A stretch of DNA of 64,000 bases, taken from Candidatus Daviesbacteria bacterium. Lineage in GTDB: Bacteria > Patescibacteriota > Microgenomatia > Daviesbacterales > UBA10151. Shown one piece after another: positions 10,503 to 62,084 of the stretch. Each line of letters starts with the position of its first letter. Within the stretch, counting starts at the first letter, position 1. A model generated the notes under the pieces. That model was not told where the DNA came from and ran no database searches. It saw nothing but the letters and a program-made list of their open reading frames with translations. The stretch covers positions 63,391 through 127,390 of the forward strand of contig JACOXI010000005.1 in the NCBI GenBank assembly GCA_016176335.1, read 5' to 3'. Position numbers and translations under genes: made by a program.

Positions 10503-11598
10503 TCTCTTGGGCCAGCAAAGGCTCCCACATAGCACCTGTGGCGCTCATTACACAATCTGCCCCAGCATCCTTATATTCAAAATAATCTTCTGCTTTGGTA
10601 ACTCCTCCCACACCAATTACGTTTATCGTAAATCGTAAATCGTTTATCGTTTTTCGCAGTCTCTTCACCATATCCAAGCCTGCCCATTTTATTGATGCTC
10701 CGCAAACCCCAGAGCGGGCTCTGTTTTTGCCGAGCAGCGCCTGATTTCCATCTTTATCAACAATCTCCGCTTGAATGGTATTGATGGAAGCAATAGCCTG
10801 GGCATATTGTTCACCAATTTCCACTAACTTCTTCAGATCTTCATCGCTTTGGTAATACCCCACTTTCAAAATTAAAGGAGTGACCCCAATTTCTTCTCTT
10901 ATAGCCTGACAAACCCTCTCTGTCGTCTCCAGGTTGTAACAAACCAACCCTTCATTTCCGATATTAGGACAGGACAAATTCACTTCCAAGATTTTTGCGT
11001 TTGTTTGCATCGATTGTTTTGCGGCTAAAGCATAATCCCTAACAAACTCATCCGTTGTTTGATTCTCCCTGACAGTTCCCATAAAACTTAAAACCAGAAC
11101 TTGTCCTCTTCCCGCATAAGAAATTGCCTTCTTAACATCCTCCTGCCAAACTGCCGGTTCCTTGGAAGGCACTCCAAAAGAATTAGTTATGGAAATCGGC
11201 TGCGAGTAATTATTGTCTGCCAAAAGAGGATTTTGGGCCTTCTCCAAAGTCAAATCTCCCTCAACTTTTACAGCTAAAACATTGGGGAAAGGATGGCAGG
11301 GAAAAACATCTGACCTGACTGTTTTATAGACACAAATATCAAAGCCTTTTTCAAAAGCAGCTTTACAGAATTTAGAATTGATTAAAGGCCCAGCTGGAAT
11401 ACCAAATGGCAGATGCACTTTTTGTCCTAAGAAATTGAACCTTGGTTCACCCTGAGCGAAGTCGAAGGGCTTCCCATTTGCAAATGCCCCAAACGGCCCC
11501 TGATCATAATTATCTTCATAGGATTTATTTGGATCGTAGAAAGGATCTTTAAGCATTAGGGGTATTTTAACACAAAAGTTAGACTTTCTTCTTTGCAT
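10483..11598 (-). CDS. pyrD: dihydroorotate dehydrogenase
   Basis: 371 aa. Motifs GIPAGP, LSCPN, IGVGGV. Convergent with pyrC and overlaps it by 20 nt. Carries an in-frame heptamer-repeat insert (KTINDLRFTINV). Confidence 0.75.
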   Translation of the reverse strand: MQRRKSNFCVKIPLMLKDPFYDPNKSYEDNYDQGPFGAFANGKPFDFAQGEPRFNFLGQKVHLPFGIPAGPLINSKFCKAAFEKGFDICVYKTVRSDVFPCHPFPNVLAVKVEGDLTLEKAQNPLLADNNYSQPISITNSFGVPSKEPAVWQEDVKKAISYAGRGQVLVLSFMGTVRENQTTDEFVRDYALAAKQSMQTNAKILEVNLSCPNIGNEGLVCYNLETTERVCQAIREEIGVTPLILKVGYYQSDEDLKKLVEIGEQYAQAIASINTIQAEIVDKDGNQALLGKNRARSGVCGASIKWAGLDMVKRLRKTINDLRFTINVIGVGGVTKAEDYFEYKDAGADCVMSATGAMWEPLLAQEIRKMGK

Positions 11599-14139: not shown

Positions 14140-16217
14140 TAGATCAAATTATCACTTACTCCTTTTACTTACTCTTTTTCCTAACCCCCCTTTTTTGGAC
14201 TTCTCAAAACTTTGAGCTTTTTGAATACAACAAAATGATTTTGACTTATGGAATCACAGTAATCATTGTCGGAGCCTGGATCCTTAAAGCCATAAACGAC
14301 AAACGATTAACGATCAAACGTACACCTTTAGATATACCGCTTCTTTTATTCCTAACAGCCAACATTTTATCAACTATTTTCTCCATAGACCCCCACACCT
14401 CCATTTGGGGCTATTATTCCCGCTCAAATGGCGGGCTTTTATCCATAATATCCTACCTATTATTATATTGGGCTTTTGTTTCCAATATAACTTCCGATCA
14501 AATTAAACCATTACTAAAAATTGGGCTTGTATCAGGTTTAATAATTTCCATCTGGGGTATTTCGGAACATTTTGGAGTCTCTCCCTCCTGTGTAATTTTA
14601 CGGGGACAATTTAGTGCCAATTGTTGGGTGCAAGATGTCCAAGCCAGGGTGTTTGCCACCTTGGGTCAGCCAAACTGGCTGGCAGCATATCTTGCCATGC
14701 TCATTTTCCCGGCCCTTTATTTCTTTTTGACTGCCACCACAAGATTAACCCGTACTACTTACTACTTACTACTTACTACTTACTACCTGGCCTTCACTTT
14801 TACCTATTCCAGAGGACCAACTTTGGGGCTAATTGGGGGATTTGTAGTATTTCTGTCGTTCTGGCTTGTCCAGAATCGATTCTGGAGTCGTCGCTCCGCT
14901 CCTCCCCAGAATGACACTGCTAAATTATTTGGTATTATCATTACTTCCTTCCTGGCTATTAACCTTCTCTTTGGCTCTGCCCTAACCAGCTTTAGATTAG
15001 TTTCCAAATTTGCTCCGCCTCCAAGACCTACCCTAACACTGCCTACCACCTCTGCTACCCAACTTGAGACCGGAGGCACGGAATCCGGAAAAATCAGATT
15101 AATTGTTTGGCAGGGAGCTTTGGATATTTTTAAAAACTATCCGATATTCGGCTCAGGAGTTGAGACTTTTGCTTATTCCTACTATCAATATCGTCCCTCC
15201 TCACATAACTTGACCAGTGAATGGGACTTTTTATACAACAAAGCTCATAATGAGTACTTAAATTACCTAGCAACAACTGGTTTAACAGGCTTTATTATAT
15301 ACATGGGAATAATTTTTACTTTTGTTTTTTGGAGTCTTTCAAGAATTTTAAATTTTAAATTTTCAATTTTCAATAAAAATTTTAAATTAGAAATTAAAAA
15401 TTACAAAAACGATAATTCAATAAATCTTTTATTAATAGCTCTGCTTGCATCCTATATCAGCTATCTTGTCTACAACTTTTTCTTATTCTCTGTTGTCATT
15501 ATTGCCATCTTTTTCTACCTCTTTCCCGCTCTTGCTTTTGTGGCAACAGAATCAACTAAGGTTTTTAAATGGCCTAAAAAACTATACCCTATACCCTATA
15601 CTCTATACTCTATACTTTACCGCCGTCCCATCTATACCAAAATGGTCAAAGGTATCGTGATTTTTTCTGTGCTCTTCTTTCTATATTCTATTTTCCAGCT
15701 CTGGTATGCCGACACGATTTTCAACCGTGGGCAACAAGCATCCGAGGCAGGCAATCCGGGCAGAGCTTATAATCTTTTAACAACCGCCTCGCAGTTAAAT
15801 CAGGCCGAGCCTTTTTATAGATCAGAGCTGGCTTTTTCAGCAGCTCAAGCTGCAGCTGCTTTAAAAGATACTGACGCCTCTCTTTCTGCCAAGCTTTCGG
15901 ATCAGGCCATATCTGATATGGACAGAGTTTTGCAGCAAAGTCCCCACAATGTTTCATATCTTCGAACCGCAATAAGAACCTATTTTGAGCTGGGTAGTAC
16001 TGACAAAGTCTATATAGAGAAAGCGTTGGAAGCTTTGGATAAAGCAATTTATTTGGCTCCCACCGATCCAAAACTGTATTATAACAAGGCATTAATTTTA
16101 CAATCCATGGATAAACACGATGAGGCCATAAAAGCCTTTGGGAAAGCTTTGGAATTAAAGCCTAATTATATTCAGGTTGAGGAACAACTTAAGGAAACAA
16201 CTGGATCTGCAAAATAG
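14136..16217 (+). CDS. O-antigen ligase/polymerase-like membrane protein with C-terminal TPR repeats
   Basis: 693 aa polytopic protein. Wzy_C-like segment (YNKAHNEYLNYLATTGLTGFIIY). C-terminal TPR (AIKAFGKALELKPNY). Contains three in-frame heptamer-repeat tracts. Confidence 0.6.
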   Translation: MIDQIITYSFYLLFFLTPLFWTSQNFELFEYNKMILTYGITVIIVGAWILKAINDKRLTIKRTPLDIPLLLFLTANILSTIFSIDPHTSIWGYYSRSNGGLLSIISYLLLYWAFVSNITSDQIKPLLKIGLVSGLIISIWGISEHFGVSPSCVILRGQFSANCWVQDVQARVFATLGQPNWLAAYLAMLIFPALYFFLTATTRLTRTTYYLLLTTYYLAFTFTYSRGPTLGLIGGFVVFLSFWLVQNRFWSRRSAPPQNDTAKLFGIIITSFLAINLLFGSALTSFRLVSKFAPPPRPTLTLPTTSATQLETGGTESGKIRLIVWQGALDIFKNYPIFGSGVETFAYSYYQYRPSSHNLTSEWDFLYNKAHNEYLNYLATTGLTGFIIYMGIIFTFVFWSLSRILNFKFSIFNKNFKLEIKNYKNDNSINLLLIALLASYISYLVYNFFLFSVVIIAIFFYLFPALAFVATESTKVFKWPKKLYPIPYTLYSILYRRPIYTKMVKGIVIFSVLFFLYSIFQLWYADTIFNRGQQASEAGNPGRAYNLLTTASQLNQAEPFYRSELAFSAAQAAAALKDTDASLSAKLSDQAISDMDRVLQQSPHNVSYLRTAIRTYFELGSTDKVYIEKALEALDKAIYLAPTDPKLYYNKALILQSMDKHDEAIKAFGKALELKPNYIQVEEQLKETTGSAK

Positions 16218-16526: not shown

Positions 16527-17051
16527 ATGTCACCCATGGAAGTAGTCAAAGCACCGGATCCAAGATTGAGAGTTAAAACTAAACCAGTCAAAAAGATTAA
16601 CCAGGCTCTAAAAAATATCTTAAAACAAATGATTAAGCTTACTCAAACCTTTAAAGACCCTGAAGGAGTAGGTTTGGCTGCAACCCAGATAGGGCTGGAT
16701 GGCCGTTTTTTTGTGGCCAAAAATGAACAGCAATTTATTTCTGTGGTAGATCCGAGGATATTATCTTTGGGCAAGCGGACCAAAAAATATTTTGAAGGTT
16801 GTTTGTCTATCCCCAATATGTGGGGTGAAGTCAGAAGGCATACCAATATTAAGGTACAATATCAGGATCAAACAGGAAAAAATATCATACTGTCTTTAAA
16901 AGGGGTACTGGCTTGGATTTTCCAACATGAAATAGATCATTTAAACGGAATTTTATTTTCAGATCGAGTTTTGCAACAAAAAGGCCAGTTCTATAAATAT
17001 ACCGGCAAAGATAAAACAGGCACAGATACATTCGAGCTCGTTGAGCTCTAA
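16527..17051 (+). CDS. def: peptide deformylase
   Basis: 174 aa. Motifs GVGLAATQIG, EGCLSIP, QHEIDHLNG. Confidence 0.9.
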   Translation: MSPMEVVKAPDPRLRVKTKPVKKINQALKNILKQMIKLTQTFKDPEGVGLAATQIGLDGRFFVAKNEQQFISVVDPRILSLGKRTKKYFEGCLSIPNMWGEVRRHTNIKVQYQDQTGKNIILSLKGVLAWIFQHEIDHLNGILFSDRVLQQKGQFYKYTGKDKTGTDTFELVEL

Positions 17052-17064
17052 ACTTAAAAGTCAA

Positions 17065-17790
17065 ATGTCAAAAGTCAAAATTATTTTTTTAGGAACTCCG
17101 CTTTTTGTTAAACTTATTAAAGATACACTGGCTAAGCATTTTACATTGGTAAAGTCACTAAAGGAGGCTGATTTAGCAGTGGTGGCGGCTTATGGCAGGA
17201 TTTTAACAAAAGATGAACTGGATATCCCTCAATATGGTTTTTTAAACATCCACCCCTCCCTTTTACCAAAATACCGGGGGCCGTCCCCAATTCAACAAGC
17301 CATCTTAAATGGAGACAAAGTATCCGGCATCACCATCATTAAAATGGATGAAGATGTGGACCATGGACCGATAATTTATCAAGAAAAATTAGAGCTTTCC
17401 GATAATGATAACTTTGATACTTTGAGTAAAAAGATGTTTCAGCTTGCAGCTCAAGTTTCACCCAAAATTATTGAAGATTTTGTATCCGGAAGAATACAAC
17501 CTACTCCACAAAATCATGATCAGGCCACCTACTGTGTTCGTCTCACCAGAGAAAGTGGGTATTTTCCTATTGATAATCCCCTCTCTGCTGAAAAATTGGA
17601 CAGGATGATTCGCGCCTATCATCCTTGGCCAGGGGTGTGGACTGTATGGGAAATCAAAAATCAAAAATCAAAAATCAAAAAGATTGTAAAGTTTCTCCCT
17701 GATGGAAGGATCCAAATGGAAGGGAAAAAAGCTATGCCGATGCGGGATTTTCTAAACGGCTACCCAGATTTTCCTTTAAAGGAACTTTAA
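17065..17790 (+). CDS. fmt: methionyl-tRNA formyltransferase (short form)
   Basis: Motifs HPSLLPKYRGPSPIQ and formyltransferase core. ATG at 17065 gives MSKVKIIFLGTP. Contains an in-frame (aatcaaa)4 tract. Confidence 0.8.
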   Translation: MSKVKIIFLGTPLFVKLIKDTLAKHFTLVKSLKEADLAVVAAYGRILTKDELDIPQYGFLNIHPSLLPKYRGPSPIQQAILNGDKVSGITIIKMDEDVDHGPIIYQEKLELSDNDNFDTLSKKMFQLAAQVSPKIIEDFVSGRIQPTPQNHDQATYCVRLTRESGYFPIDNPLSAEKLDRMIRAYHPWPGVWTVWEIKNQKSKIKKIVKFLPDGRIQMEGKKAMPMRDFLNGYPDFPLKEL

Positions 17791-17971
17791 CTACTCTTAA
17801 ACATTTAGTGCAGTATTTTTTGCCTTTGTAAACATGCAGATTGGGCTTTTGTACTCTTTTGTGAATGGGGGCGCGCAAAGCCCAAACACCTCCTGCTCCG
17901 GAGGAACCTTTCTTATGACGGGAATATGACAGAGTATTTTTACCTTTTCCACACCTAATACATGCTAACAT
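17732..17971 (-). CDS. rpmB: 50S ribosomal protein L28 (zinc-ribbon form)
   Basis: CIRCGKG...SYSRHKK...KRVQKPNLH...CTKCLR resembles L28 conserved segments. Start trimmed to internal Met. Confidence 0.5.
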   Translation of the reverse strand: MLACIRCGKGKNTLSYSRHKKGSSGAGGVWALRAPIHKRVQKPNLHVYKGKKYCTKCLRVVKVPLKENLGSRLENPASA

Positions 17972-18022
17972 GTGGTAAACTATAACATGAGTTGATTTAT
18001 GATTCAAGATTCTTAAATCTAT

Positions 18023-26064: not shown

Positions 26065-27375
26065 ATGCACAAAACTCATCTTAAGGAAAAGCATGACCAC
26101 CAAACTTTAAAATTTCCACAAGGTTTCTTATGGGGTGCTGCAACGAGTGCCCACCAGGTTGAGGGCGGAAATATTTACAATGACTGGTGGAAGTGGGAAC
26201 AGGATAGGCCCCCCCATCTTCGTTCAGGAGCAGCCTGTGATCAATATAACCGCTACAGGGAAGATTTTGAGATGGCCAAGGATCTAAACCACAACGCCCA
26301 CAGGCTGTCAATTGAATGGTCCAGAATTGAGCCTCGCGAGGGTGAATTTAACCTTGCCGAGATTGAGCATTATGTTAAGTTACTTAAGCACCTTAAGTCA
26401 CTTAATATGACAGTCATGTTAACCCTATGGCACTTTACACTGCCTGGCTGGTTAGCGGACTGCGGCGGGTGGGAGAACTTTAAAGCCCCTTTTTACTTTG
26501 AGCGTTTTGTTAAAAAAATTGCGCCTGAACTGGGAGAATACGTAGATTTCTGGGTGACCATCAACGAGCCGGGAGTTTATATTTACGAAACTTACATTGA
26601 AAGGGTTTGGCCGCATTCCAAAAAAAGCCTGATTGGCCAGATTAAAACTTATTTAAACCTTGCCTCCGCTCATAGAAAGACTTACAGATTTCTACATTCC
26701 AAAAATGCTTTGGGCAAACCAGTCGGCATGGCCCAAAACATCATGTCATTTGAACCTTACCACAAACATTCAATCATGGAGCAGCTGGCTGTTGTTGTAA
26801 ACGATATATTCACCAATCATCTTTTTTATTTTTTAACCCGAGGCACGCACGATTTCCTGGGAATAAATTACTATTTTCATGCCCGTTTAAAACACCAAGG
26901 TTTAATACCCCAAAAGGTAGACTTTTCTCCTCCAACGCACGAGGTGTCCGATTTAGGCTGGGAAATATACCCCGAGGGTCTTTTTGATGTTTTGAGTGAC
27001 CTTTCCGATGATGTGCCTATTTATATCACCGAGTGCGGCATTGCCTCAACCAACGACGATCGGAGAAACCGCTTTCTTGTAGCCTACTTACAAGAGGTTG
27101 TGAGGGCCATAAAATCAGGTGTAAATGTCAGAGGATTTTTCTATTGGTCTTTAATTGATAATTTTGAGTGGCATTTGGGATTTACACCTAGATTTGGTCT
27201 TATTGAAGTAGATTATGAAACCCAAAAAAGGCACATTCGGCCATCCGCATTAACCTTTGCGGAAATTATTGCTGCAAACGGCATTCCTCACACTTTGATG
27301 AGGTTTTTGGGACACACAGTCACATCAGAAGAGGTTTTAAAAAGATTTCAGAAAATGGAACCACAGCATAAATAA
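26065..27375 (+). CDS. glycoside hydrolase family 1 (beta-glucosidase-like)
   Basis: 436 aa. Acid/base TINEP and nucleophile ITECGIA (ITENG-type) motifs. N-terminal FLWGAATSAHQVEG. Confidence 0.8.
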   Translation: MHKTHLKEKHDHQTLKFPQGFLWGAATSAHQVEGGNIYNDWWKWEQDRPPHLRSGAACDQYNRYREDFEMAKDLNHNAHRLSIEWSRIEPREGEFNLAEIEHYVKLLKHLKSLNMTVMLTLWHFTLPGWLADCGGWENFKAPFYFERFVKKIAPELGEYVDFWVTINEPGVYIYETYIERVWPHSKKSLIGQIKTYLNLASAHRKTYRFLHSKNALGKPVGMAQNIMSFEPYHKHSIMEQLAVVVNDIFTNHLFYFLTRGTHDFLGINYYFHARLKHQGLIPQKVDFSPPTHEVSDLGWEIYPEGLFDVLSDLSDDVPIYITECGIASTNDDRRNRFLVAYLQEVVRAIKSGVNVRGFFYWSLIDNFEWHLGFTPRFGLIEVDYETQKRHIRPSALTFAEIIAANGIPHTLMRFLGHTVTSEEVLKRFQKMEPQHK

Positions 27376-27489
27376 TGCCAAAACTCAAATGTCAAAACTT
27401 AAAACTTAAAGATTTTAGCGCGTAGCGCGAACTTGTTCAGATTTGAGTTGTAGATTTGCGATTTGAGATCTAAGATTTAAGATAAACAA
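27376..27489. repeat. same heptamer-repeat palindromic element family, centre gcgcgtagcgcg
   Basis: aaactcaaatgtcaaaacttaaaacttaaag ... tagcgcgtagcgcga ... agatttgagttgtagatttgcgatttgagatctaagatttaagat. Confidence 0.75.
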
Positions 27490-28386
27490 ATGTACTTACC
27501 AATTTCTATTCTGGCCTTCATTTTAAACGGCATTGCCGTAACAACAGATAAATTCCTGCTTGTAAAAGTTATTCCGGATCCCTTATTTTATGTTTTTTAT
27601 TTCAGCCTGGTAAGTTTTTTGGCTGTATTGCTTCTGCCTTTTACCCATATCCCCACGAGGGAAGTACTTCTTCTTTCATCCGCATCAACCGTGCTTTGGA
27701 CACTCGGTGCCCATTTTATGTTCAAAGCCTTAAAGGTTGGTCAGATTGAAAGAGTGATCCCTGTTATTGGCAGTGTAAATCCCCTGATACTTTTCCTGAT
27801 TGCTTTAGCTAGTGGGACAATATTAACCAATGAGATTTGGGGGATTTTAGTACTCATATTAGGGTTCATATTTTTAACTCTCTCTGCGTGGAAAGGCAAA
27901 ATCCAAAAGGATGAGCTGTTGTTTGAAGGGTTATCCGCCACCCTTTTGGCTTTGTCATATCTGATTTTGAGGCAGGCATATTTAAGAGAAAATTTTATCA
28001 CTGTTTTGGTTTGGTCCAGATTTATCCTGATTCCTGTTGCAATAGTTTTTCTTATGGTACCCCTTCTGCGAAGCAAGGTTATACCCAGTCAATCCCAAGG
28101 TGTCTCACTAATTAAAAAAGGCGGATTGCTTTTTATCATTGGACAAGTTTCGGCAGGAATTTCTCAACTCCTTATCTTTTTTGCCATATCTTTGGCAAAT
28201 CCGGCTTTGGTAAATTCCCTTCAGGGAATTCAATATGTCTTTCTGTTTATAGCGGCACTGCTGCTTTCCAAAAAATTCCCGTTTATTTTCAAAGAGACCT
28301 ATTCAAAAAAAGTTTTGCTGTTTAAAATTTTTGGGATTTTACTGATTGGTTTAGGGCTTTATACATTAGCTTTCTCTTCAGGATAA
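27490..28386 (+). CDS. DMT/EamA-like polytopic membrane protein
   Basis: 298 aa, about 10 TM helices. Confidence 0.45.
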   Translation: MYLPISILAFILNGIAVTTDKFLLVKVIPDPLFYVFYFSLVSFLAVLLLPFTHIPTREVLLLSSASTVLWTLGAHFMFKALKVGQIERVIPVIGSVNPLILFLIALASGTILTNEIWGILVLILGFIFLTLSAWKGKIQKDELLFEGLSATLLALSYLILRQAYLRENFITVLVWSRFILIPVAIVFLMVPLLRSKVIPSQSQGVSLIKKGGLLFIIGQVSAGISQLLIFFAISLANPALVNSLQGIQYVFLFIAALLLSKKFPFIFKETYSKKVLLFKIFGILLIGLGLYTLAFSSG

Positions 28387-31359: not shown

Positions 31360-31554
31360 ATGAAAAAAGGAGTTAGTTTTATTAAGGAAGTTTACGAAGA
31401 GTTAGTAAAAGTGGCCTGGCCCACCAGAGAACAAACTATCCGCTACACTGTTTTGGTAATCATTGTCACTTTGGTTGTGGGAGTTTTTTTGGGAGGATTT
31501 GATTATATTTTGACAGCAATAACAGCATTTATACTAGAACACTATGGACGATGA
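31360..31554 (+). CDS. secE: preprotein translocase subunit SecE
   Basis: 64 aa. VKVAWPTREQT motif followed by a single TM. Immediately upstream of nusG. Confidence 0.7.
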   Translation: MKKGVSFIKEVYEELVKVAWPTREQTIRYTVLVIIVTLVVGVFLGGFDYILTAITAFILEHYGR

Positions 31555-32308
31555 TTTAAAACTCAAAACTCAAATGTCAAATGTCAAAGCTGGAGAGGAT
31601 CAGACAGCAAAATCTGAACCAGTTAATGATATAAGCGAAGGGAGACTGCCTCCGAACGCAGCGAGCCCTAGAGTCGCCGAAGGCGACCGTACCCGAGGCG
31701 AAGCCGAAGGCGAGCCGCAGGGCGTAAGTACCGAAGGTACAGTTGGCGAGCAAGAGAGCGGGGCGGTCGACCGATCAGGCAATCCTAACGCCAAATGGTA
31801 TGTTGTTCATACTTATTCCGGTCATGAAAACAAAGTGGCGCACACTTTAAAGCAGCGGATTGAATCCGAACATTTGGAAGAGAAAATTTTAGATGTTTTG
31901 GTGCCTATGCAGGATAAAATTGAAATAAAAGGCGGCAAAAAAGTAAGCATTAAAGAAAAAATCTTCCCCGGCTATATTTTGGTAAAAATGGTTTTGGAAG
32001 ATAGTTCCTGGCTGGCTGTCAGAACAACTCAAGGTGTCACCTCCTTTGTGGGTATGGGTAATAAACCCACCCCGATCTCCGATGCGGAGGTGGCCACCAT
32101 AGTCAAATTTACCCAAGAGGAGGCTCCTGTTTATAAGCAGGTTTTCTCTGTTTCGGATACTATCAAAATTGTGGACGGGCCTTTTGCAGATTTTATTGGT
32201 AAAGTGGATAATGTGGATGAGGAAAAAGGCAAGGTTAAGGTTTTGGTATCAATATTCGGGCGTGAAACACCAGTGGAGTTGGATTTTCTGCAGGTGCAGA
32301 AGATATGA
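31544..32308 (+). CDS. nusG: transcription termination/antitermination factor NusG with ~75-aa repeat-derived N-terminal extension
   Basis: NGN start KWYVVHTYSGHENKV and KOW C-terminus. No in-frame start codon near the NGN domain, so the extension (heptamer tract plus GC-rich element) appears to be translated. Confidence 0.85.
   Translation: MDDDLKLKTQMSNVKAGEDQTAKSEPVNDISEGRLPPNAASPRVAEGDRTRGEAEGEPQGVSTEGTVGEQESGAVDRSGNPNAKWYVVHTYSGHENKVAHTLKQRIESEHLEEKILDVLVPMQDKIEIKGGKKVSIKEKIFPGYILVKMVLEDSSWLAVRTTQGVTSFVGMGNKPTPISDAEVATIVKFTQEEAPVYKQVFSVSDTIKIVDGPFADFIGKVDNVDEEKGKVKVLVSIFGRETPVELDFLQVQKI
31640..31775. repeat. GC-rich element copy inside the nusG N-terminal extension
   Basis: gggagactgcctccgaacgcagcgagccctagagtcgccgaaggcgac...gttggcgagcaagagagcggggcggtcgaccgatcagg. 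Palindrome gtcgccgaaggcgac. Read in a different frame than the PBP1A copy. Confidence 0.7.
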
Positions 32309-32368
32309 TCGGCTCTTCGTATATCGAATATTGGTCATCCGATAAACGATAAACGATATTCCAAACAA

Positions 32369-32805: not shown

Positions 32806-33723
32806 ATGGGCAAGACAAAAGTAGCCATCATTGATGATTCAGCGCAAGAAGAGAATAGAGAATCAAGAATAAAGAATAAAGCCTCTAAGAAAAGGGCTAA
32901 AGCGACCGAAGTGAAGTCTGATGCAGCTTCTCGACTGTTTGAGCCAGGCGAGGATGGCCAAAAGGCTCAAGCTTTGACGAGCGTGACGCCATCCGAGCCG
33001 ATTCCGCCAAAGGCGGAAGGCGAGTTGGAGAAGCAAATTCAGACGAACGAGAGAGTACAACCTAAAAAACCTCAAAAACCAGGCAAAGCTAAGCCCCGCT
33101 CCAAGAAATACCAAGAGGTCGTAAAAGATTTGGATAGAACTAAATCCTACCCTTTAGGTGAGGCTATAGAACTTAGTAAAAAACTGTCCTATTCTAAATT
33201 CACAGGTACACTTGAAGCACATATCAATACCACTCAAACAGGAATCCGTGGTTTAGCCTCCCTTCCCTATTCTTCAGGTAAAAAATTACGCATCCTGGTC
33301 TTTGGAAAAGGTGCCAAAGACGCAGGTGCAGATCTGGTGGGTGATGATTCCACCATTGAGGCTATCTCCCAGGGCAAAATTGATTTTGACCTTCTGATAA
33401 GCACTCCTGAATGGATGCCAAAGCTTGCCAAAGTGGCAAGGGTTTTGGGACCTAAGGGGCTCATGCCCAATCCCAAAAATGGCACCATCACAGACGACCT
33501 CAAAAAAGCAGTGGAAGGATTTCAAGCCGGAAAAACAGAATACAAAACAGAGGCCAAAGCAGCAGTAATCCACCTTGGGCTGGGAAAGTTGAATCAACCT
33601 ACCGAGGAGTTATCTGCCAATGTTCAAACTTTGCTTCAAACTTTAGGCAAAACCAGAGTTAAAAAAGTCACTCTTTCCCCCACCATGGGACCATCAGTTA
33701 AAGTTGATCTAGCTTCCATGTAA
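32806..33723 (+). CDS. rplA: 50S ribosomal protein L1 with ~90-aa N-terminal extension
   Basis: L1 core starts near KKYQEVVK...EAIELSKK. N-terminal Lys/Glu-rich extension carries a GC-rich stretch. Confidence 0.85.
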   Translation: MGKTKVAIIDDSAQEENRESRIKNKASKKRAKATEVKSDAASRLFEPGEDGQKAQALTSVTPSEPIPPKAEGELEKQIQTNERVQPKKPQKPGKAKPRSKKYQEVVKDLDRTKSYPLGEAIELSKKLSYSKFTGTLEAHINTTQTGIRGLASLPYSSGKKLRILVFGKGAKDAGADLVGDDSTIEAISQGKIDFDLLISTPEWMPKLAKVARVLGPKGLMPNPKNGTITDDLKKAVEGFQAGKTEYKTEAKAAVIHLGLGKLNQPTEELSANVQTLLQTLGKTRVKKVTLSPTMGPSVKVDLASM

Positions 33724-42588: not shown

Positions 42589-42801
42589 TCCTTAATGTCA
42601 GTCAATACGACACATTGACAAACATGACATCATAAGTTAAAATAATTTGGCTTAAGACAGTGAGTGGAGCGAAGCGACATCCTGAGCATAGTCGAAGGAT
42701 GCTTTACACCATAAATCTCACCGAGGCAGTTTAGTATATCGTAAGATTGAATATCGTATATCGGAAAACCGATAAACAATAAACGATTAACGATAAACCA
42801 A

Positions 42802-42826
42802 AAACGCCTCAGAAAGGCGTTTTTTA
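42802..42826 (+). terminator. rho-independent terminator-like hairpin plus T-run abutting the rplJ start codon
   Basis: aaacgcc-tcagaaa-ggcgttttttaa, then ATG of rplJ 2 nt later. A-run on the 5' side makes it bidirectional in form. Confidence 0.5.
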
Positions 42827-43364: not shown

Positions 43365-43440
43365 TATATCGTAAATCGGTTATCGTATATCGGAAACACA
43401 CAAACCATAAACGATAAACCATAGACGATCAAACAACCAT

Positions 43441-44088
43441 ATGGCAGATGATCAACAAAAACAAGATCAACAATCAGAACAGCCTAAAACTGAAGAATCA
43501 ACAGAGGGAGCGAAGGCTGCCGCAGATTCTCAACTGTCAGAGGCAGGCGAGATCAGCAGCGAGAGCACAAGTTCTGACGTGCACGAGCCTGGTCGAGCTG
43601 GTGGCGAACCGCCAGCTGGCGGTGAGCCAGCCGAGTTGGAGAATCAAGGCCAGCCGAGCGACCAAAGCGCACCAGCCAAGAAAAAACCTGCTCCTAAACC
43701 AGTTTCAGCAAACTTAGAAAAGATAATTGAACAAATTGAAAAATTATCAGTTCTAGAACTGGCTGATTTAGTACATGCTTTAGAGGATAGATTTGGGGTT
43801 TCAGCATCCGCACCAGTTATGGCAGCAGGACCAGCAGCCGCCTCGCCTTCGGCGGGCGAGCCAACGGAGGAAAAAACTACTTTCAATGTGGTTTTAACAG
43901 CAGCAGGTGCCAATAAAATTGCAGTGATAAAAGCTGTCAGGGAATTAGTCCAGACTTTAGGGTTAAAAGAGGCAAAAGATTTGGTGGAGTCAGCTCCAAA
44001 ACCTGTTTTGGAATCAGTTAATAAGCAGACTGCTGAAGAGGCAAAACAGAAGCTTACGGCAGCAGGAGCGACAGTAGAACTTCAATAA
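43441..44088 (+). CDS. rplL: 50S ribosomal protein L7/L12 with ~90-aa GC-rich N-terminal extension
   Basis: L12 core from [28 protein letters not shown] to ...AAGATVELQ. Acidic/Pro-rich N-terminal extension. Confidence 0.85.
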
Positions 44089-44454: not shown

Positions 44455-44650
44455 ATATCTCAAAACTCAAATCGCAAAACATCAATGCTGCCTTCGGCAG
44501 AACAAAAATACAATTCAAATCTAAAATCTTTTAACGGTTTTGAGATTTAGGATGTAGATTTGACCCATTCGGCTTCGTTCAGGGTCATCCTGAGCATTGT
44601 CGAAGGATGCCATTTGAGATCTAAGATTTGAGATTTAGCACTTAAGTACT
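44455..44650. repeat. heptamer-repeat arms flanking a conserved core (ggtcatcctgagcattgtcgaaggatgc)
   Basis: Arms tctcaaaactcaaatcgcaaaac ... gatttgagatctaagatttgagatttag. Core has hairpin catcc/ggatg. Related cores at 42667..42702 and 61174..61220. Confidence 0.75.
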
Positions 44651-45238: not shown

Positions 45239-46030
45239 TCAACCCTTCAGCTGAGCTCTCAAAAGCAAATACAGGTATTGTATTAAAGCCAGCTGCCTTT
45301 TGATCCTCCATGGTTGAAGACACAACCTGAACAACCACTCAAATCCTAAATGTTGTATCCAAATTGGAGCTCTGGGAACCTTGCCGCTTATTATATCAAA
45401 TGCTCCCCCCACCCCCATAGCCACTTTAACAGGAATTTTGGGCAAATTTTTAGCAATCCATTTTTCTTGTTTTGGAGGACCAAGCGCCACAAACAAAATA
45501 CCTGTTTGTGGCAGATTTAAGATATAAGATTTAGGATTTATGATTTTCTCTCTATTCTTAAATCTTAAATCATAAATCATATCTCCATCATCATTAAAAA
45601 TCCCAACTTCACTGGCAAACGAGACTTTAAGTTTTGGATATTTCCTCTTCAAGCACTCAGCCGTTTTTTCTGCTATCTTCCCTCTCCCTCCTAAAAAGCC
45701 TGTTGTAAAACCCTTTTCTTCGGCCATCTTTACCAACCCTTCCATTACATCTATACCAGGGGTAGTCATAACTATATCACCAGTAAGTTTCAACCCTACC
45801 CCATCAGGAACTGCTAAATCCGCGTTATTTAATATCCTTTTAAATACAAGGTCTTTTTGGGCCGCGACGATAAACTCCGGATTAGGAGTTACTATGTAAT
45901 GTTTACCGGGATTCCAAATCCAATGCTCTACTATCGTAAGCGCTTCATTAAGACTTACATCATCAATTTTGATTCCCAGAACATCTACTTTCATAAATTC
46001 TCCAATACCCCAAGTGTTTCTTTTGCGCAT
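45239..46030 (-). CDS. tagA: WecB/TagA/CpsF-family glycosyltransferase
   Basis: 263 aa. Family motifs (IVTPNPEFIV, DLAVPDGVG). Contains an in-frame heptamer-repeat insert (YDLRFKNREKIINPKSYILNL). Confidence 0.75.
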   Translation of the reverse strand: MRKRNTWGIGEFMKVDVLGIKIDDVSLNEALTIVEHWIWNPGKHYIVTPNPEFIVAAQKDLVFKRILNNADLAVPDGVGLKLTGDIVMTTPGIDVMEGLVKMAEEKGFTTGFLGGRGKIAEKTAECLKRKYPKLKVSFASEVGIFNDDGDMIYDLRFKNREKIINPKSYILNLPQTGILFVALGPPKQEKWIAKNLPKIPVKVAMGVGGAFDIISGKVPRAPIWIQHLGFEWLFRLCLQPWRIKRQLALIQYLYLLLRAQLKG

Positions 46031-47160
46031 TTCTCCCAGCTAAATCTTTCTATATTATCAAGTCCCGCCTTAATAAGCTTAATTCTTAATTCTTGATTCT
46101 TTATTCTTATCATTCCCTTTACTATATCATCTACACTATATGGATTAACATAAACTGCTCCTTTACCAGCCACCTCCGGCATGGATGAAAGATTAGAAGT
46201 GATCACCGGACAACCACAAGCCTGGGCCTCCAAGATTGGCAAACCAAAACCTTCAAAAAGCGAAGGAAAAAGTAATGCTATTGCTCCGAAGTACAGTGCA
46301 GATAAATCTTTATCAGGCACATACCCCAAAAATTTTACCCTGTCCTCTATCCCTAATTTCTTTGGCAACTGATAAATTTCATCAGACAGCCAGCCTTTAG
46401 AACCTGCTATAACTAATTTCAGTGATTTATGATTTATGATTAAAGATTTATGATTTTTTATTCGTAAATCAGTATTCTTAAATCGTAAATCTTGCTCATA
46501 AATTAATTTTTCTTCAGATATAAACTTACTGAATGCAATAATTAAACGCTCGAGATTTTTACGAGGCTGTACTGTCCCCACAAACAAAAAATAACTATGA
46601 TACTTTAAATTATATTTCTTAATACTTTGAGTGTCTTTGAACTTTTCTTTATCATATCCTTCATAACTCACGCTGATTTTATCCGGTTTAATTCCCACCC
46701 TTTTGATAAGATCATCCTTAGTGGCCCGGGACACAGCAATCAAGGCAGTTGCGCTTTTTAGCTGGGAGCGGGTCATGAAATTTAAATACAACCTTTGTTT
46801 TAGCTGGTGCATGGCCGGAAGATATTCTGATCCCAAATCATGAACAGTCACCAAAGTCTTAAGTCCTGGCTTTCTAATAACCGGCAAGGTATGGGCAGGT
46901 ACAAATAACACATCAATATTGTCTTTGAAGGTCTGCAAAGCCAACCCCCCTTGAGTCCATAAAAATTTAAAATTTAAAGTTGAAAATTGAAAATTGTCAG
47001 GGAAATCTTTTTTAACAAAATTAACACCTGGCCTTAAATAAACTTGGTAAGTATTTTTCCTATCAATCCTTGCCAAAGCCTTAAGCAGTTGATAAGAATA
47101 ATTCTCTGTACCTGTTTTCTCTTTAATAAAGGCCCTGGAAGCATCAAATCCAATAATCAT
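45991..47160 (-). CDS. GT4-family glycosyltransferase
   Basis: 389 aa. EGFGLPILEAQACGCPVITS motif. Contains an in-frame heptamer-repeat insert (DLRFKNTDLRIKNHKSLIINHKSL). Confidence 0.8.
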   Translation of the reverse strand: MIIGFDASRAFIKEKTGTENYSYQLLKALARIDRKNTYQVYLRPGVNFVKKDFPDNFQFSTLNFKFLWTQGGLALQTFKDNIDVLFVPAHTLPVIRKPGLKTLVTVHDLGSEYLPAMHQLKQRLYLNFMTRSQLKSATALIAVSRATKDDLIKRVGIKPDKISVSYEGYDKEKFKDTQSIKKYNLKYHSYFLFVGTVQPRKNLERLIIAFSKFISEEKLIYEQDLRFKNTDLRIKNHKSLIINHKSLKLVIAGSKGWLSDEIYQLPKKLGIEDRVKFLGYVPDKDLSALYFGAIALLFPSLFEGFGLPILEAQACGCPVITSNLSSMPEVAGKGAVYVNPYSVDDIVKGMIRIKNQELRIKLIKAGLDNIERFSWEKCAKETLGVLENL

Positions 47161-53519: not shown

Positions 53520-53601
53520 AAAGTATTATACATAAAAAATCTCAAATGGTAAATCTCAAATGTCAAAACTAGATTTGCGTTTTGCGATTTGAGTTTTGAG
53601 A
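53520..53601. repeat. same heptamer-repeat palindromic element family
   Basis: aaatctcaaatggtaaatctcaaatgtcaaaactagatttgcgttttgcgatttgagttttgagatt. Confidence 0.75.
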
Positions 53602-54585
53602 TTACTTAATCTCCACATCGTCAACCATAGTTGACCCGTCCTCAAATACCGTGACTACTGCAAACCTTGGTAATTGCGGGTTTCGCTCGGTTCCAACCGC
53701 TCCGATTGTGACCATAGACAGGTTGGTTTCCGGTTCGTTGTATTGGCTGAAATAGTGGGTATCGCCTGCAAAGACTTTTTTCACCCCTACAAGCGCAAAA
53801 ATTAAACTTCTTGCCTGATTTTTTAACTCCTTTTCTACCCTCCCCATTATATGGTCGGATGAGGGGTGAAAAAGCGGTTCATGGACAAACACAAATATAG
53901 CCTTAACTTGCTCATCTTTTGATCTTTCCAGCTCACCTGCAACCCACTTAAGTTGTACCTCATCTATCCCTAGATAATTATCACTGTTGTCAAGCAGTAT
54001 AAATTTAAAGTTATGTAAACTGAAAGATTGATAAGTAGGACCAAAAATTTGTCTGAAATTTGTCAGCGGAGGTTGATTTTTATCTCTTGAGTCCCACAGA
54101 TCATGATCTCCGGGAATCAGAAAGTAACGCAAGTTTGCCTCATCAAACTCTTTTTTGGCTTTTTGCATCTCATCCAAAGTACCTACTTCTGTATAATCCC
54201 CCAACCCGATAACAAATTGAATATCCGGAAAGATCTGTTTGGCTTGAGAGATTGCTTTTTGCAGGTTGTTATTGTCACTGTGTGAATCCGCTACCAGCAA
54301 AAATTTAAAGACGCTCTTGGGACTTGTTTTGGGAACGGGGGTGGAAGCAGTTAGATTTTGGGGCAATAATTTTTGATCTCCAATTTTAACCTTGGAAAGC
54401 AAGGTTAATGCCTCATTCGCGACTGATTTTGGATCAAGCTTTAAAGGATCCAAACCGGAAAAGTGCTTGTACGCGGAATATACCCCGCCTAAAAGTATAG
54501 TAAATATAATAAGGCTTAATATAAACCTGAATAAAATAAATATGGGATTGGCAGATTTTCTACCGCTGTGTTTTCTAAACATCAC
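53602..54585 (-). CDS. calcineurin-like metallophosphoesterase (membrane-anchored)
   Basis: 327 aa. Motifs LVADSHSD, GLGDYTEVG, IPGDHDLW. Confidence 0.7.
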   Translation of the reverse strand: MMFRKHSGRKSANPIFILFRFILSLIIFTILLGGVYSAYKHFSGLDPLKLDPKSVANEALTLLSKVKIGDQKLLPQNLTASTPVPKTSPKSVFKFLLVADSHSDNNNLQKAISQAKQIFPDIQFVIGLGDYTEVGTLDEMQKAKKEFDEANLRYFLIPGDHDLWDSRDKNQPPLTNFRQIFGPTYQSFSLHNFKFILLDNSDNYLGIDEVQLKWVAGELERSKDEQVKAIFVFVHEPLFHPSSDHIMGRVEKELKNQARSLIFALVGVKKVFAGDTHYFSQYNEPETNLSMVTIGAVGTERNPQLPRFAVVTVFEDGSTMVDDVEIK

Positions 54586-56201: not shown

Positions 56202-56340
56202 AAGTTAATAATAGCATATCTCAAATGTCAAAACTCAAATGTCAAATCTGAATCTTAAAACTTAAAACTAGACTAAAACAGTTTTGAGATTTAAGTTTTA
56301 GTTTTGAGTTTTGCGATTTGCGTTTTGAGTTAACATTAGC
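56202..56340. repeat. palindromic composite intergenic element built from degenerate heptamer repeats (tcaaatg arm / cattttga arm)
   Basis: Left arm tctcaaatgtcaaaactcaaatgtcaaatctgaatcttaaaacttaaaac, centre tagactaaaacag, right arm ttttgagatttaagttttagttttgagttttgcgatttgcgttttgag. The arms are reverse complements of each other. Confidence 0.8.

Positions 56341-60791: not shown

Positions 60792-62084
<1,293 letters not shown>

What the first reader, a model, noticed from the sequence alone, without database searches (positions are those of the whole stretch)
17048..17682. Heptamer repeats inserted in-frame in fmt (N-terminus and an internal (aatcaaa)4 tract)
The tcaaaagtcaaatgtcaaaagtcaaaa tract spans the def-fmt junction and supplies the fmt start region (MSKVK...). 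A second tract, ggaaatcaaaaatcaaaaatcaaaaatcaaaaag at 17650..17682, encodes EIKNQKSKIKK inside the formyltransferase C-terminal region. A 7-nt unit is not a multiple of 3, so gaining or losing one unit shifts the frame. These tracts could therefore act as slip-strand switches in an essential gene, or they have been tolerated only in multiples of three units.
Basis: partly seen in the sequence, partly recalled or inferred. Interest (0 to 1): 0.6.

Follow-up and report, generated by a model that had tools for sequence, protein, structure and literature searches.

The report
In-frame heptamer microsatellites in fmt
Two short runs of a 7-base repeat, one at the start of and one inside the methionyl-tRNA formyltransferase gene of a Candidatus Daviesbacteria genome, are real and part of a genome-wide excess of 7-base repeats, and they look like old insertions kept in frame in tolerant parts of the protein rather than an on/off switch.

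Summary
Both tracts exist as described. Tract 1 (17054-17081) is four heptamers at the def/fmt junction and supplies the fmt ATG and codons M-S-K-V. Tract 2 (17651-17681) is a perfect (AAATCAA)4.4 array encoding E196-K206.

They are not chance. The window holds 18 period-7 arrays and none of period 5, 6 or 8-11; shuffles give 0.04.

Tract 2 is an insertion relative to the basal Daviesbacteria Fmt: 67 of the 120 closest homologs have a 2-residue turn there. It lengthens a confidently modelled beta-hairpin in the C-terminal domain, at a loop that carries some insert in about 40% of homologs.

Seven other homologs carry a heptamer-derived insert at the same codon. Six of the eight array-type homologs, this genome included, have exactly 10 codons there, but the units differ (AAAATCA, AGAGTCA, AAAGTAA, AAAGTGC, AAAGGGG). 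The array is therefore old, fixed in length and homogenised in place. An O-antigen-ligase transmembrane site shows the same pattern across more than 100 homologs.

A change of one or two units would truncate Fmt. No length variant was seen, but no same-species sequence was available. The best reading is slippage-born heptanucleotide microsatellites held in frame by selection. The "tolerated only in threes" alternative is supported; the "switch" alternative is unsupported and untested.

The parts
16527..17051 (+). def (peptide deformylase) CDS; the stop codon TAA is at 17049-17051, immediately upstream of tract 1
   Evidence: Pfam Pep_deformylase 6.4e-44. Synteny Wzy-small ORF-def-fmt-M50 is conserved in relatives.
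17054..17081 (+). Tract 1: four heptamers, TTAAAAG TCAAATG TCAAAAG TCAAAAT, of the NTCAAAW class. They fill the def-fmt spacer, carry the fmt ATG (17065-17067) and encode M-S-K-V.
   Evidence: Four relatives (L081, L087, L153, L157) instead have a 4-nt ATGA def/fmt overlap (sequences). L084-L086 have the same array with one base different. L158 has GTTCAAA ATGCAAA GTTCAAA ATTCAAA at the same junction.
17065..17790 (+). fmt CDS, 241 aa, a reduced methionyl-tRNA formyltransferase. The catalytic residues N61, H63 and D99 (E. coli N108/H110/D146) are present.
   Evidence: P0001 100% identical; invariant columns; alignment to 1FMT.
17651..17681 (+). Tract 2: a perfect (AAATCAA)4.4 array. Codons 17650-17682 encode E196-K206 (EIKNQKSKIKK), the distal half of a beta-hairpin in the C-terminal domain.
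   Evidence: AF2 model: strands 191-198 and 203-211, turn N199-S202, pLDDT about 89. The site is orthologous to heptamer-derived 10-codon inserts in L081, L087, L155, L156, L157 and L158.
17992..18014 (+). Degenerate reverse-oriented heptamer run (TTGATTT ATGATTC AAGATTC), 78% complementary to tract 2 and 313 nt downstream, in the spacer before the M50 peptidase gene. It may be a partner arm or a coincidence.
   Evidence: Inverted repeat I1. Not followed up.
14753..14786 (+). Context: a perfect (TACTACT)4.9 array inside the O-antigen-ligase (Wzy_C/TPR) gene, encoding the transmembrane segment TTYYLLLTTYYL. It shows the same behaviour as tract 2: length fixed, unit sequence variable between species.
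15344..15616 (+). Context: further in-frame heptamer arrays in the same gene, (AATTTTA)n at 15344-15407 and (CTATACY)5 at 15582-15616. Here they are length-variable insertions relative to L081 and L087.
10620..10656 (-). Context: an in-frame heptamer array (ACGATTT-type) in the dihydroorotate dehydrogenase gene, with no length change relative to L081.

Best explanation
The two fmt tracts are heptanucleotide microsatellites. They belong to a genome-wide population of period-7 arrays in this Candidatus Daviesbacteria (candidate phyla radiation, CPR) genome. The arrays are most likely produced and kept homogeneous by replication slippage or out-of-register pairing between 7-nt units (inferred).

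Tract 2 is an old insertion of about 3 units plus one codon into the turn of a beta-hairpin in the reduced C-terminal domain of Fmt. It lengthens that hairpin by 8 residues, mostly Lys. The protein tolerates it because this loop tolerates almost any insert. Selection removes every variant that is not in frame, so the array is fixed at about 4 units (10 codons), while its unit sequence is repeatedly homogenised in place (concerted evolution).

Tract 1 is an array of the same NTCAAAW class. It replaced what is inferred to be the ancestral ATGA def/fmt overlap and now supplies the start codon and three extra N-terminal residues.

Neither tract is a regulated switch. Out-of-frame slippage products, if they arise, are simply loss-of-function alleles that selection removes.

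Shown: the arrays, their genome-wide excess, the insertion site, the hairpin model, and the same-length arrays with different units in other species. Inferred: slippage as the generator, selection as the length lock, and the absence of a switching function.
For: 1. Genome-wide excess of period 7 only. There are 48 of 98 TRF rows with period 7. Exact runs: 20 for period 7, 0 for periods 6 and 8-15. Imperfect arrays: 18 against 0, with 0.04 expected from shuffles. The density is 2.8 per 10 kb, against 0.23 per 10 kb in 1.14 Mb of other bacterial fmt loci.
2. Arrays with many different units lie inside intact housekeeping genes: DHO dehydrogenase, O-antigen ligase, two glycosyltransferases and ArgRS. 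There are no split genes.
3. Tract 2 is an insertion. 67 of 120 closest Fmt homologs have a 2-residue turn, W-NG-KIVKF. E. coli has a short EIEGQP turn there.
4. The AF2 model (mean pLDDT 91.6) puts residues 196-206 in a two-stranded hairpin with the turn at NQKS. The fold still matches solved Fmt structures, TMq about 0.8.
5. The site is orthologous across species. The window has (AAAATCA)4 and L155 has a perfect (AGAGTCA)4. L081 and L087 have a decayed (AAAGTAA)4, and L157 has a similar sequence whose period-7 signal is lost. L156 has (AAAGTGC)4 and L158 has (AAAGGGG)4. Six of eight have exactly 10 codons between W and K-I-V-K-F. The lag-7 signal is significant in five of them (p <= 0.004).
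6. The same behaviour is seen at the O-antigen-ligase transmembrane site. The units are TACTACT (window, L153), TTTTTAC (L087) and CTATTAC/G (L155), all at one position. The segment length is identical (36 aa) in 107 of 112 homologs, and the two 7-aa repeats co-vary: TTYYLLL.., VTCYLLL.., ITYYLLT...
7. A change of 1 or 2 units gives proteins of 205-214 aa that lack the invariant QMEGKK..DFLNGYP block. A change of 3 units stays in frame.
8. Tract 1 has the same number of units in L084-L086, which are 88.0% identical over 861 nt with no gaps.
9. Literature: heptanucleotide repeats are the most abundant long simple sequence repeats (SSRs) in most bacterial genomes, and a 7-nt polymerase footprint that favours slippage has been proposed (Mrazek et al. 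2007, as summarised in PMC4679880 and PMC4692102).
Against: No population or read data exist for this genome, so the mutability of the tracts is unknown.

The insertion is +8 codons (24 nt) over the basal turn, not a clean 21 nt. An extra codon has to be assumed.

If homogenisation ran through steps of 3 units, species with 3 or 17 codons at the fmt site, or 29 or 43 aa at the Wzy site, should exist. None was seen among 120 homologs of each. So the homogenising mechanism is not simple expansion and contraction, and it remains unexplained.

The closest relative (P0002/L084) has a different, GC-rich insert at the same loop. Replacement, not only slippage, therefore operates there.

Arrays of the same NTCAAAW class flank a dispersed palindromic module in intergenic regions. 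An origin by element insertion is therefore not excluded.
Confidence: 0.72

Rival explanations
1. Contingency locus. The tracts are slip-strand switches that stochastically turn fmt off and on (or change its N-terminus), as the heptanucleotide array in neuO does. This would give a subpopulation that initiates translation without formylation.
For: A 7-nt unit shifts the frame, and a change of 1 or 2 units gives truncated Fmt. Perfect arrays and unit-level homogenisation show that out-of-register pairing is active on evolutionary time. A coding-region heptanucleotide switch exists in neuO (PMC13001214).
Against: There are only about 4 units, whereas neuO arrays span 3-53 units and most sequenced genomes are in the OFF state. 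The gene is housekeeping, not a surface or restriction-modification gene. Similar arrays sit in ArgRS, DHO dehydrogenase and glycosyltransferases, all intact. Length is conserved at 10 codons in six of eight lineages. Tract 1 is unchanged across 12% nucleotide divergence. No out-of-frame allele was seen anywhere.
Confidence: 0.07
2. Footprint of a small mobile or dispersed element. The heptamer run entered the fmt hairpin as part of a composite intergenic element (heptamer arms plus a GC-rich palindromic module), analogous to palindromic elements inserted in frame in Rickettsia genes. It did not arise by local slippage.
For: Intergenic regions of the window carry NTCAAAW/WTTTGAN arrays flanking a palindromic module at 44555-44615 and 61165-61222. 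The Fmt hairpin of relatives L153 and L154 contains pieces of that same module, with 20/24 and 23/26 matching bases. About 40% of homologs carry one of about six recurrent insert families at this loop. Both fmt tracts belong to the NTCAAAW class that recurs at about 10 gene boundaries.
Against: Tract 2 contains no module sequence. Arrays elsewhere in coding regions have unrelated units (TACTACT, CTATACC, ACGATTT), which argues for a general period-7 process and not one element. No terminal repeats, target duplication or transposase were seen. The array-type insert has the same length in six of eight lineages with different units, which fits in-place evolution.
Confidence: 0.13
3. Protein-level adaptation. 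The Lys-rich extended hairpin (EIKNQKSKIKK) was selected because it improves binding of initiator tRNA by a C-terminal domain that has lost about 35 residues. The DNA periodicity is incidental to how the insert arose.
For: Array-type inserts in other species are also basic, for example EVKSRKEKVKK and EVQSAKGKVKR. The insert is modelled as an ordered hairpin. Its length is conserved. The Daviesbacteria C-terminal domain is reduced relative to E. coli.
Against: 67 of 120 homologs, with the same reduced domain, do without any insert. Others carry acidic, neutral or Gly/Ser-rich inserts at the same loop: SFDSAQDK, RQGSSGQA and RGESGKGKGG. Contact of this hairpin with tRNA was not tested.
Confidence: 0.07
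4. Chance low-complexity sequence or an assembly artefact.
For: The genome is AT-rich (about 40% GC) and comes from a metagenome assembly.
Against: Shuffles give 0.04 arrays against 18 observed. Other periods give none. The arrays are 25-35 nt, shorter than any read. Orthologous arrays occur in independently assembled genomes.
Confidence: 0.01

Closest known systems
neuO heptanucleotide (AAGACTC)n coding repeat of the E. coli K1 prophage CUS-3 (phase-variable O-acetyltransferase)
   Same: It is a 7-nt unit inside a coding region, where full-length translation requires a repeat number in the right class modulo 3 (PMC13001214).
   Different: [quoted passage not shown] It varies within cultures, and most sequenced genomes are OFF. 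The gene is an accessory surface-modification function. Here the arrays have about 4 units, sit in a housekeeping gene, have the same length across species, and showed no OFF allele.
Long simple sequence repeats (LSSRs) of bacteria with heptanucleotide over-representation (Mrazek, Guo and Shah 2007, as summarised in PMC4679880 and PMC4692102), including the three tandemly repeated heptanucleotides reported in the cyanobacterium Calothrix PCC7601
   Same: There is a genome-wide excess of period 7 specifically, with other periods of 4-11 normal. Arrays are short, include inverted pairs in intergenic regions, and their length and sequence turn over between related species. The proposed cause is polymerase slippage with a 7-nt footprint.
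   Different: Those repeats are described as mainly intergenic, and units divisible by 3 are the ones that dominate in coding regions. Here many arrays lie in frame inside conserved enzymes, and they are positionally orthologous across a clade with fixed length.
TAACTGA repeats of marine Beggiatoaceae and cyanobacteria, and GGGAATC / GGGGAYT repeats of Xanthomonas and Nostoc
   Same: They are heptamer direct repeats of 2-6 copies, often directly upstream of start codons, and sometimes form inverted pairs. Tract 1 resembles this placement.
   Different: Those genomes have one dominant unit, which suggests a sequence-specific role. This window has many unrelated units plus one recurrent NTCAAAW class.
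In-frame tandem repeats of Borg elements (PMC9879509; only the abstract was seen)
   Same: They are rapidly evolving perfect tandem repeats inside ORFs that create new low-complexity protein segments.
   Different: I recall that the Borg units inside ORFs are divisible by 3, but I did not read the paper to check this. Here the unit is 7 nt, so only 21-nt steps are neutral to the frame.
Rickettsia palindromic elements inserted in frame in protein-coding genes (from my own knowledge: Ogata et al. 2000; not checked here)
   Same: Short non-coding-type repeats are tolerated inside essential proteins at surface positions. This is relevant to the other insert families at the same Fmt hairpin in relatives.
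   Different: Those are palindromic mobile elements of about 100-150 bp, not 7-nt microsatellites.

Membership tests
Heptanucleotide long simple sequence repeat (LSSR / microsatellite) | At least 3 head-to-tail copies of a 7-nt unit | tested here: met
   TRF: 17056-17080 has 3.6 copies at 88% matches; 17651-17681 has 4.4 copies at 100% matches.
Heptanucleotide long simple sequence repeat (LSSR / microsatellite) | Genome-wide over-representation of period 7 relative to neighbouring periods and to shuffled sequence | tested here: met
   18-20 arrays for period 7, against 0 for periods 5, 6 and 8-15. Shuffles give 0.04. Only 64 kb of the genome was available.
Heptanucleotide long simple sequence repeat (LSSR / microsatellite) | Generated and changed by slipped-strand mispairing | tested here: inconclusive
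   The evidence is indirect only. Units are homogenised within arrays but differ between species at orthologous sites. No copy-number polymorphism was observed.
Phase-variable contingency locus (slip-strand switch) | A repeat whose unit changes alter the reading frame or the promoter spacing of a gene | tested here: met
   A change of 1 or 2 units truncates Fmt at 205-214 aa.
Phase-variable contingency locus (slip-strand switch) | Tract-length polymorphism among close strains or within a population, including OFF alleles | not testable with these tools
   No contig encoding the identical protein is on record. The flank pattern found nothing in the metagenome collection. The nearest relative there is 83% identical. 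The P0001 cluster has one member. Tract 1 is unchanged in the 88%-identical relative.
Phase-variable contingency locus (slip-strand switch) | A long, hypermutable tract in a gene for surface structures, restriction-modification or host interaction | tested here: not met
   The tract has 4 units in a translation-initiation housekeeping gene. Similar arrays lie in ArgRS, DHO dehydrogenase and glycosyltransferases.
Methionyl-tRNA formyltransferase (Fmt) | Formyl_trans_N and Formyl_trans_C domains, with the catalytic Asn/His/Asp | tested here: met
   Pfam 112.3 and 37.6 bits, both above cut-off. N61, H63 and D99 are invariant and align to E. coli N108, H110 and D146. The top fold hits are Fmt.
Methionyl-tRNA formyltransferase (Fmt) | Score above the curated equivalog cut-off (TIGR00460) | tested here: not met
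   191.5 bits against a cut-off of 201.5. The protein lacks about 45 residues of the N domain and about 35 of the C domain relative to E. coli. The shortfall reflects this lineage-wide reduction and not the repeats.
In-frame mobile palindromic element (RPE-like / MITE) | A dispersed element with a conserved sequence, inverted termini or a palindrome, present at many loci | tested here: not met
   Tract 2 has no palindromic module. The module occurs at 44555-44615 and 61165-61222 and in the Fmt hairpins of L153 and L154, but not in this fmt.

The most novel reading that the evidence does not exclude
Daviesbacteria carry positionally orthologous heptanucleotide microsatellites inside essential and housekeeping genes (fmt, O-antigen ligase and others). 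These have persisted across the clade with their length fixed by the reading frame and by protein constraints, while their unit sequence is repeatedly homogenised in place. This would be coding-region concerted evolution with a unit that is not a multiple of three. It implies a highly active, 7-nt-specific out-of-register pairing or conversion process in this CPR lineage, and a standing load (or reservoir) of frameshift alleles in core genes.
Probability: 0.4. Interest if true: 0.6.

Novelty: new variant of a known kind. Interest (0 to 1): 0.42.

Why it matters
Heptanucleotide microsatellites are known to be over-represented in bacteria, but they are described as mainly intergenic. Coding-region examples such as neuO are long, variable switches in accessory genes.

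Here short heptamer arrays sit in frame inside core genes of a reduced CPR genome. They stay the same length across species while every unit changes together. That gives a natural system in which slippage or conversion between units can be separated from copy-number change. It also shows how a non-triplet repeat can build new protein segments: an 8-residue hairpin extension in Fmt and a transmembrane segment in an O-antigen ligase. It identifies one Fmt hairpin as a general insertion hot spot.

For annotation, it warns that such tracts in metagenome-assembled genomes are real features and are not evidence of pseudogenes or switches.

Tried and rejected
It returned almost only non-Daviesbacteria, with one Daviesbacteria locus (L001) that has no arrays. 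It was useful only as a background density.
2. An exact-flank DNA pattern in metagenome contigs found nothing. The protein-guided scan found only the known 83% relative. So there are no population data for the tracts.
3. Near-identical contigs of two relatives (L081-083, L087-090) showed a single homopolymer indel and no heptamer copy-number change. They contain few arrays, so this is uninformative.
4. I looked for genes split by frameshifts at arrays, using overlapping same-strand ORF pairs. The pairs I scanned are either different proteins or gave no family hit, and none looked like one gene split in two.
5. A search for close homologs of the array-rich O-antigen ligase, aimed at 7-aa indels, found nothing closer than 77% identity. 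The set instead showed strict length conservation.
6. Rfam found only tRNAs.
7. Folding the def-fmt junction RNA gave no structure beyond shuffles, z = -0.04. No riboswitch or attenuator reading is supported.
8. Programmed -1 ribosomal frameshifting on C-AAA-AAG at the end of tract 2 was considered. The motif is imperfect, the shifted frame ends after a few codons, and no stimulatory structure was sought. I rejected it as unsupported.
9. My guess that the antisense ORF at 17732-18007 is ribosomal protein L28 got no support from Pfam or NCBIfam.
10. I tried to test a 'copy number = 1 + 3n' rule from array lengths alone. Coding arrays cluster at 4.4-5.0 units, but array boundaries are fuzzy and the sample is small, so I treat this as suggestive only.
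Full report
**What is there**

The region 16527-17790 encodes def (Pfam Pep_deformylase, 6.4e-44) followed by fmt (Formyl_trans_N 2.8e-32, Formyl_trans_C 2.6e-09). The 241-aa Fmt is 100% identical to an NCBI protein named methionyl-tRNA formyltransferase from Candidatus Daviesbacteria. This places the window in the Microgenomates, part of the candidate phyla radiation (CPR).

Tract 1 is TTAAAAG TCAAATG TCAAAAG TCAAAAT at 17054-17081. TRF gives it as 17056-17080 with 3.6 copies. The def stop codon is 17049-17051. The fmt ATG (17065-17067) lies in the variant unit TCAAATG.

Tract 2 is a perfect (AAATCAA)4.4 array at 17651-17681. Codons 17650-17682 read EIKNQKSKIKK, residues 196-206.

**More than chance, and not special to fmt**

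- TRF lists 98 arrays in the window, and 48 of them have period 7.
- Exact runs: 20 for period 7, none for periods 6 or 8-15.
- Imperfect arrays: 18 for period 7, none for periods 5, 6 or 8-11.
- Block shuffles of the window give 0.04 arrays on average, at most 1.
- The density is 2.8 per 10 kb. In 1.14 Mb of fmt loci from other bacteria it is 0.23 per 10 kb, and in other Daviesbacteria loci it is 0-1.9 per 10 kb.

The units are diverse: TACTACT, CTATACC, ACGATTT, AATTTTA and others. One class, NTCAAAW, recurs: 20 matches of TCAAAANTCAAAA against 2.6 expected. Both fmt tracts belong to this class.

Arrays lie in frame inside DHO dehydrogenase, the O-antigen ligase, a WecG and a GT4 glycosyltransferase, and ArgRS. 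They also lie at many gene boundaries. None of the overlapping ORF pairs I scanned turned out to be one gene split by a frameshift.

**Where tract 2 sits in the protein**

Against E. coli Fmt (1FMT), residues 184-206 align to 226-249: WPMSWL--EIEGQPVKVWK. The tract therefore occupies the turn of the first beta-hairpin of the C-terminal domain.

Among the 120 closest homologs:

- 67 have a 2-residue turn (W-NG-KIVKF).
- 8, including this protein, have a Lys-rich insert of 10-11 residues of the type E-V-K-S-x-K-x-K-V-K.
- About 40 carry one of five other recurrent insert families.
- The remainder are 'other' or could not be parsed.

So the residues are a lineage-restricted insertion at a hot spot, not conserved Fmt sequence.

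AlphaFold2 with the 48-sequence alignment gives mean pLDDT 91.6. It has strands at 191-198 and 203-211 with a turn at N199-S202, so the tract simply lengthens the hairpin. The model's best PDB matches are Fmt structures, TMq 0.77-0.81. The catalytic residues N61, H63 and D99 are invariant.

The protein is a reduced Fmt. The Pfam N-domain match starts at profile position 78. About 35 residues of the C domain are absent. TIGR00460 scores 191.5 bits against a cut-off of 201.5.

**The key comparison: DNA of relatives**

At the same codon position the sequence between TGG (W) and the K-I-V-K-F codons is as follows:

| Source | Sequence or array | Codons |
|---|---|---|
| window | GAA ATC AAA AAT CAA AAA TCA AAA ATC AAA | 10 |
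| L155 | AGA GTC AAG AGT CAA GAG TCA AGA GTC AAG GAA, a perfect (AGAGTCA)4.3 | 11 |
| L081, L087 | decayed (AAAGTAA)4 | 10 |
| L157 | similar sequence, period-7 signal no longer significant (p = 0.73) | 10 |
| L156 | decayed (AAAGTGC)4 | 10 |
| L158 | decayed (AAAGGGG)4 | 10 |
| L159 | shorter | 6 |

Lag-7 self-identity is 0.62-0.92, with shuffle p <= 0.004 in five of these and p = 0.043 in L087. It is absent in L157 and in the unrelated GC-rich insert of L084.

Thus six of eight lineages have exactly 10 codons, but each has its own unit, and that unit is spread over all four copies. This is the signature of an old array that is homogenised in place while its length is held constant.

The same pattern appears at a transmembrane segment of the neighbouring O-antigen-ligase gene. 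The units are (TACTACT)4.9 in the window, (TACTACT)4 in L153, (TTTTTAC)5 in L087 and (CTATTAC/G)5 in L155, with decayed versions in three others, all at one position. In 107 of 112 homologs that could be parsed the segment is exactly 36 residues. Its two 7-residue repeats co-vary: TTYYLLLTTYYL, VTCYLLLVTCYL, ITYYLLTITYYL.

**Tract 1**

Four relatives (L081, L087, L153, L157) have def and fmt overlapping by ATGA (sequences). In the window, about 25 nt of heptamer array separate the def stop from the AAA-ATT codons. The array brings its own ATG.

Three contigs of the nearest relative (L084-086) are 88.0% identical over 861 nt without gaps. They have the same junction except for one base, which makes a fourth clean unit. 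L158, which sits next to the window's protein in a neighbour-joining tree of the Fmt proteins, has GTTCAAA ATGCAAA GTTCAAA ATTCAAA at the junction and starts MQSSKFKV. So tract 1 is also inherited, and it has been stable in copy number over about 12% nucleotide divergence.

The junction RNA is no more structured than shuffles, z = -0.04. Rfam finds nothing there.

**Switch or frame-locked repeat?**

Adding or removing one or two units of tract 2 gives proteins of 205-214 residues that lack the invariant QMEGKK...DFLNGYP block. Three units more or fewer give intact proteins of 248 or 234 residues.

The features of a contingency locus are not met, however. The tract is short and the gene is housekeeping. 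Equivalent tracts sit in many other core genes. Length is conserved between species. No out-of-frame allele was seen.

The comparison with neuO makes the contrast concrete. That heptanucleotide array spans 3-53 units, most genomes are OFF, and single cultures are mixed (PMC13001214).

The direct test is length variation in reads or sister strains, and I could not run it. The exact protein is on no other contig. The flanks match nothing in the metagenome collection. The nearest relative there is only 83% identical.

**Mechanism**

The literature already reports that heptanucleotide units are the most abundant long simple sequence repeats in most bacterial genomes. It has been proposed that about 7 nt is the stretch held by the polymerase, which would favour slippage by that step. 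Units divisible by three are the ones usually found in genes (summaries of Mrazek et al. 2007 in PMC4679880 and PMC4692102).

I therefore take slippage or out-of-register pairing as the generator. This is an inference.

What is unusual here is that non-triplet arrays persist inside conserved genes and are homogenised without a change in length. Simple expansion and contraction by three units predicts lineages with 3 or 17 codons at the fmt site, or 29 or 43 residues at the Wzy site. None was found. A conversion-like correction within misaligned heteroduplexes fits better, but it is untested.

**Alternative origin**

Intergenic regions of the window contain NTCAAAW/WTTTGAN arrays. They often occur as inverted pairs that would form long hairpins, and they sometimes flank a GC-rich palindromic module at 44555-44615 and 61165-61222.

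Pieces of that module form the Fmt hairpin inserts of relatives L153 (SFDSAQDK) and L154 (SRHPE...), with 20/24 and 23/26 matching bases. The hairpin is thus a landing site for dispersed repeats in general, and tract 2 could have arrived as an arm of such an element. It contains no module sequence, and coding arrays elsewhere have unrelated units. I rank this below local slippage.

**Verdict**

The 'insertion' and 'only multiples of three tolerated' readings are supported. The 'switch' reading is unsupported and remains untested.

The tracts are members of the known class of heptanucleotide microsatellites. They occur in an unusual setting: in frame, in core genes, positionally conserved and evolving in concert. 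I score this moderate interest.

Noticed in passing
window 1-64000 (for example 10620-10656, 14753-14786, 15344-15407, 15582-15616, 45513-45581, 46078-46108, 46423-46456, 46962-46996, 54872-54905, 61304-61335): There is a genome-wide excess of period-7 tandem arrays with many different units. Many lie in frame inside conserved enzymes: DHO dehydrogenase, O-antigen ligase, WecG and GT4 glycosyltransferases, and ArgRS. No other period from 5 to 15 is enriched.
   Followed up: yes
window 14753-14786; L087 7821-7857; L153 7807-7834; L155 1850-1883: One transmembrane segment of the O-antigen-ligase gene is a heptamer array in several species, with different units (TACTACT, TTTTTAC, CTATTAC/G). The segment length is identical in 107 of 112 homologs, and its two 7-aa repeats co-vary. 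This is concerted evolution with fixed length.
   Followed up: yes
window 27375-27490, 44455-44640, 53530-53603, 56218-56331, 61140-61243, 42734-42806, 43366-43434, 32320-32358: Intergenic spacers are built from paired heptamer arrays in opposite orientation (NTCAAAW ... WTTTGAN, or CGATAAA/TATCGTA). They would fold into hairpins of 30-45 nt per arm, and several sit between a stop codon and the next gene. They could be terminators or regulatory hairpins. I did not fold them or compare them across species.
   Followed up: no
window 44555-44615 and 61165-61222 (the core CATCCTGAG also occurs at 42678); L153 and L154 fmt hairpin codons: A GC-rich palindromic module (TTCGACTYCGCTCAG...GTCATCCTGAGC...CGAAGGAT) is flanked by heptamer arrays. 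Halves of it appear, translated, as the SFDSAQDK and SPSRHPE insert families in the Fmt hairpin of other Daviesbacteria. A second hairpin (FLP..G.IQMEGKK) also hosts inserts such as ARNAS..., SPRHPE... and PTSHPALDAGS. This is reminiscent of palindromic elements inserted in frame in genes.
   Followed up: partly
window 31544-31800 (NusG), 32806-33100 (L1), 43441-43715 (L7/L12): The ORFs for NusG, ribosomal protein L1 and L7/L12 extend about 85-125 residues upstream of where their first Pfam domain match begins (residues 84, 129 and 93). The extensions are low-complexity, acidic, and rich in Pro, Gly, Ala and Glu. They begin with or next to heptamer arrays. The true start codons were not verified.
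   Followed up: no
window 17065-17790: Daviesbacteria Fmt is a reduced enzyme of about 230-240 aa. It lacks about 45 residues of the N-terminal domain and about 35 of the C-terminal beta-barrel relative to E. coli. It scores just under the TIGR00460 equivalog cut-off (191.5 against 201.5 bits) while keeping the catalytic Asn/His/Asp.
   Followed up: partly
window 17732-18007 (- strand): A small ORF of up to 91 aa with two CxxC pairs runs convergent to fmt and overlaps its last 59 nt. ORFs of 81-102 aa are called at the same place in relatives. It has no Pfam or NCBIfam match, and my guess of ribosomal protein L28 was not supported.
   Followed up: partly
window 17992-18014 versus 17656-17678: A degenerate reverse-oriented heptamer run (TTGATTT ATGATTC AAGATTC) lies upstream of the M50 peptidase gene. 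It is 78% complementary to tract 2, 313 nt away, and the two bracket the small antisense ORF. This could be coincidence or a long-range pairing.
   Followed up: no
window 17642 / L084 1043-2069: Similarity to the closest relative (88% nt) stops exactly at tract 2. The relative has a GC-rich insert (FRQGSSGQA) at that loop, a more diverged fmt 3' end (74%), and an extra 243-aa gene between fmt and the M50 peptidase gene. The hairpin coincides with a break in similarity.
   Followed up: partly
window 17034-17048: A perfect inverted repeat, GAGCTC-GTT-GAGCTC, forms the last codons of def (ELVEL) immediately before its stop codon and tract 1. Relatives have FEEVTI/FEEISLP there instead.
   Followed up: no
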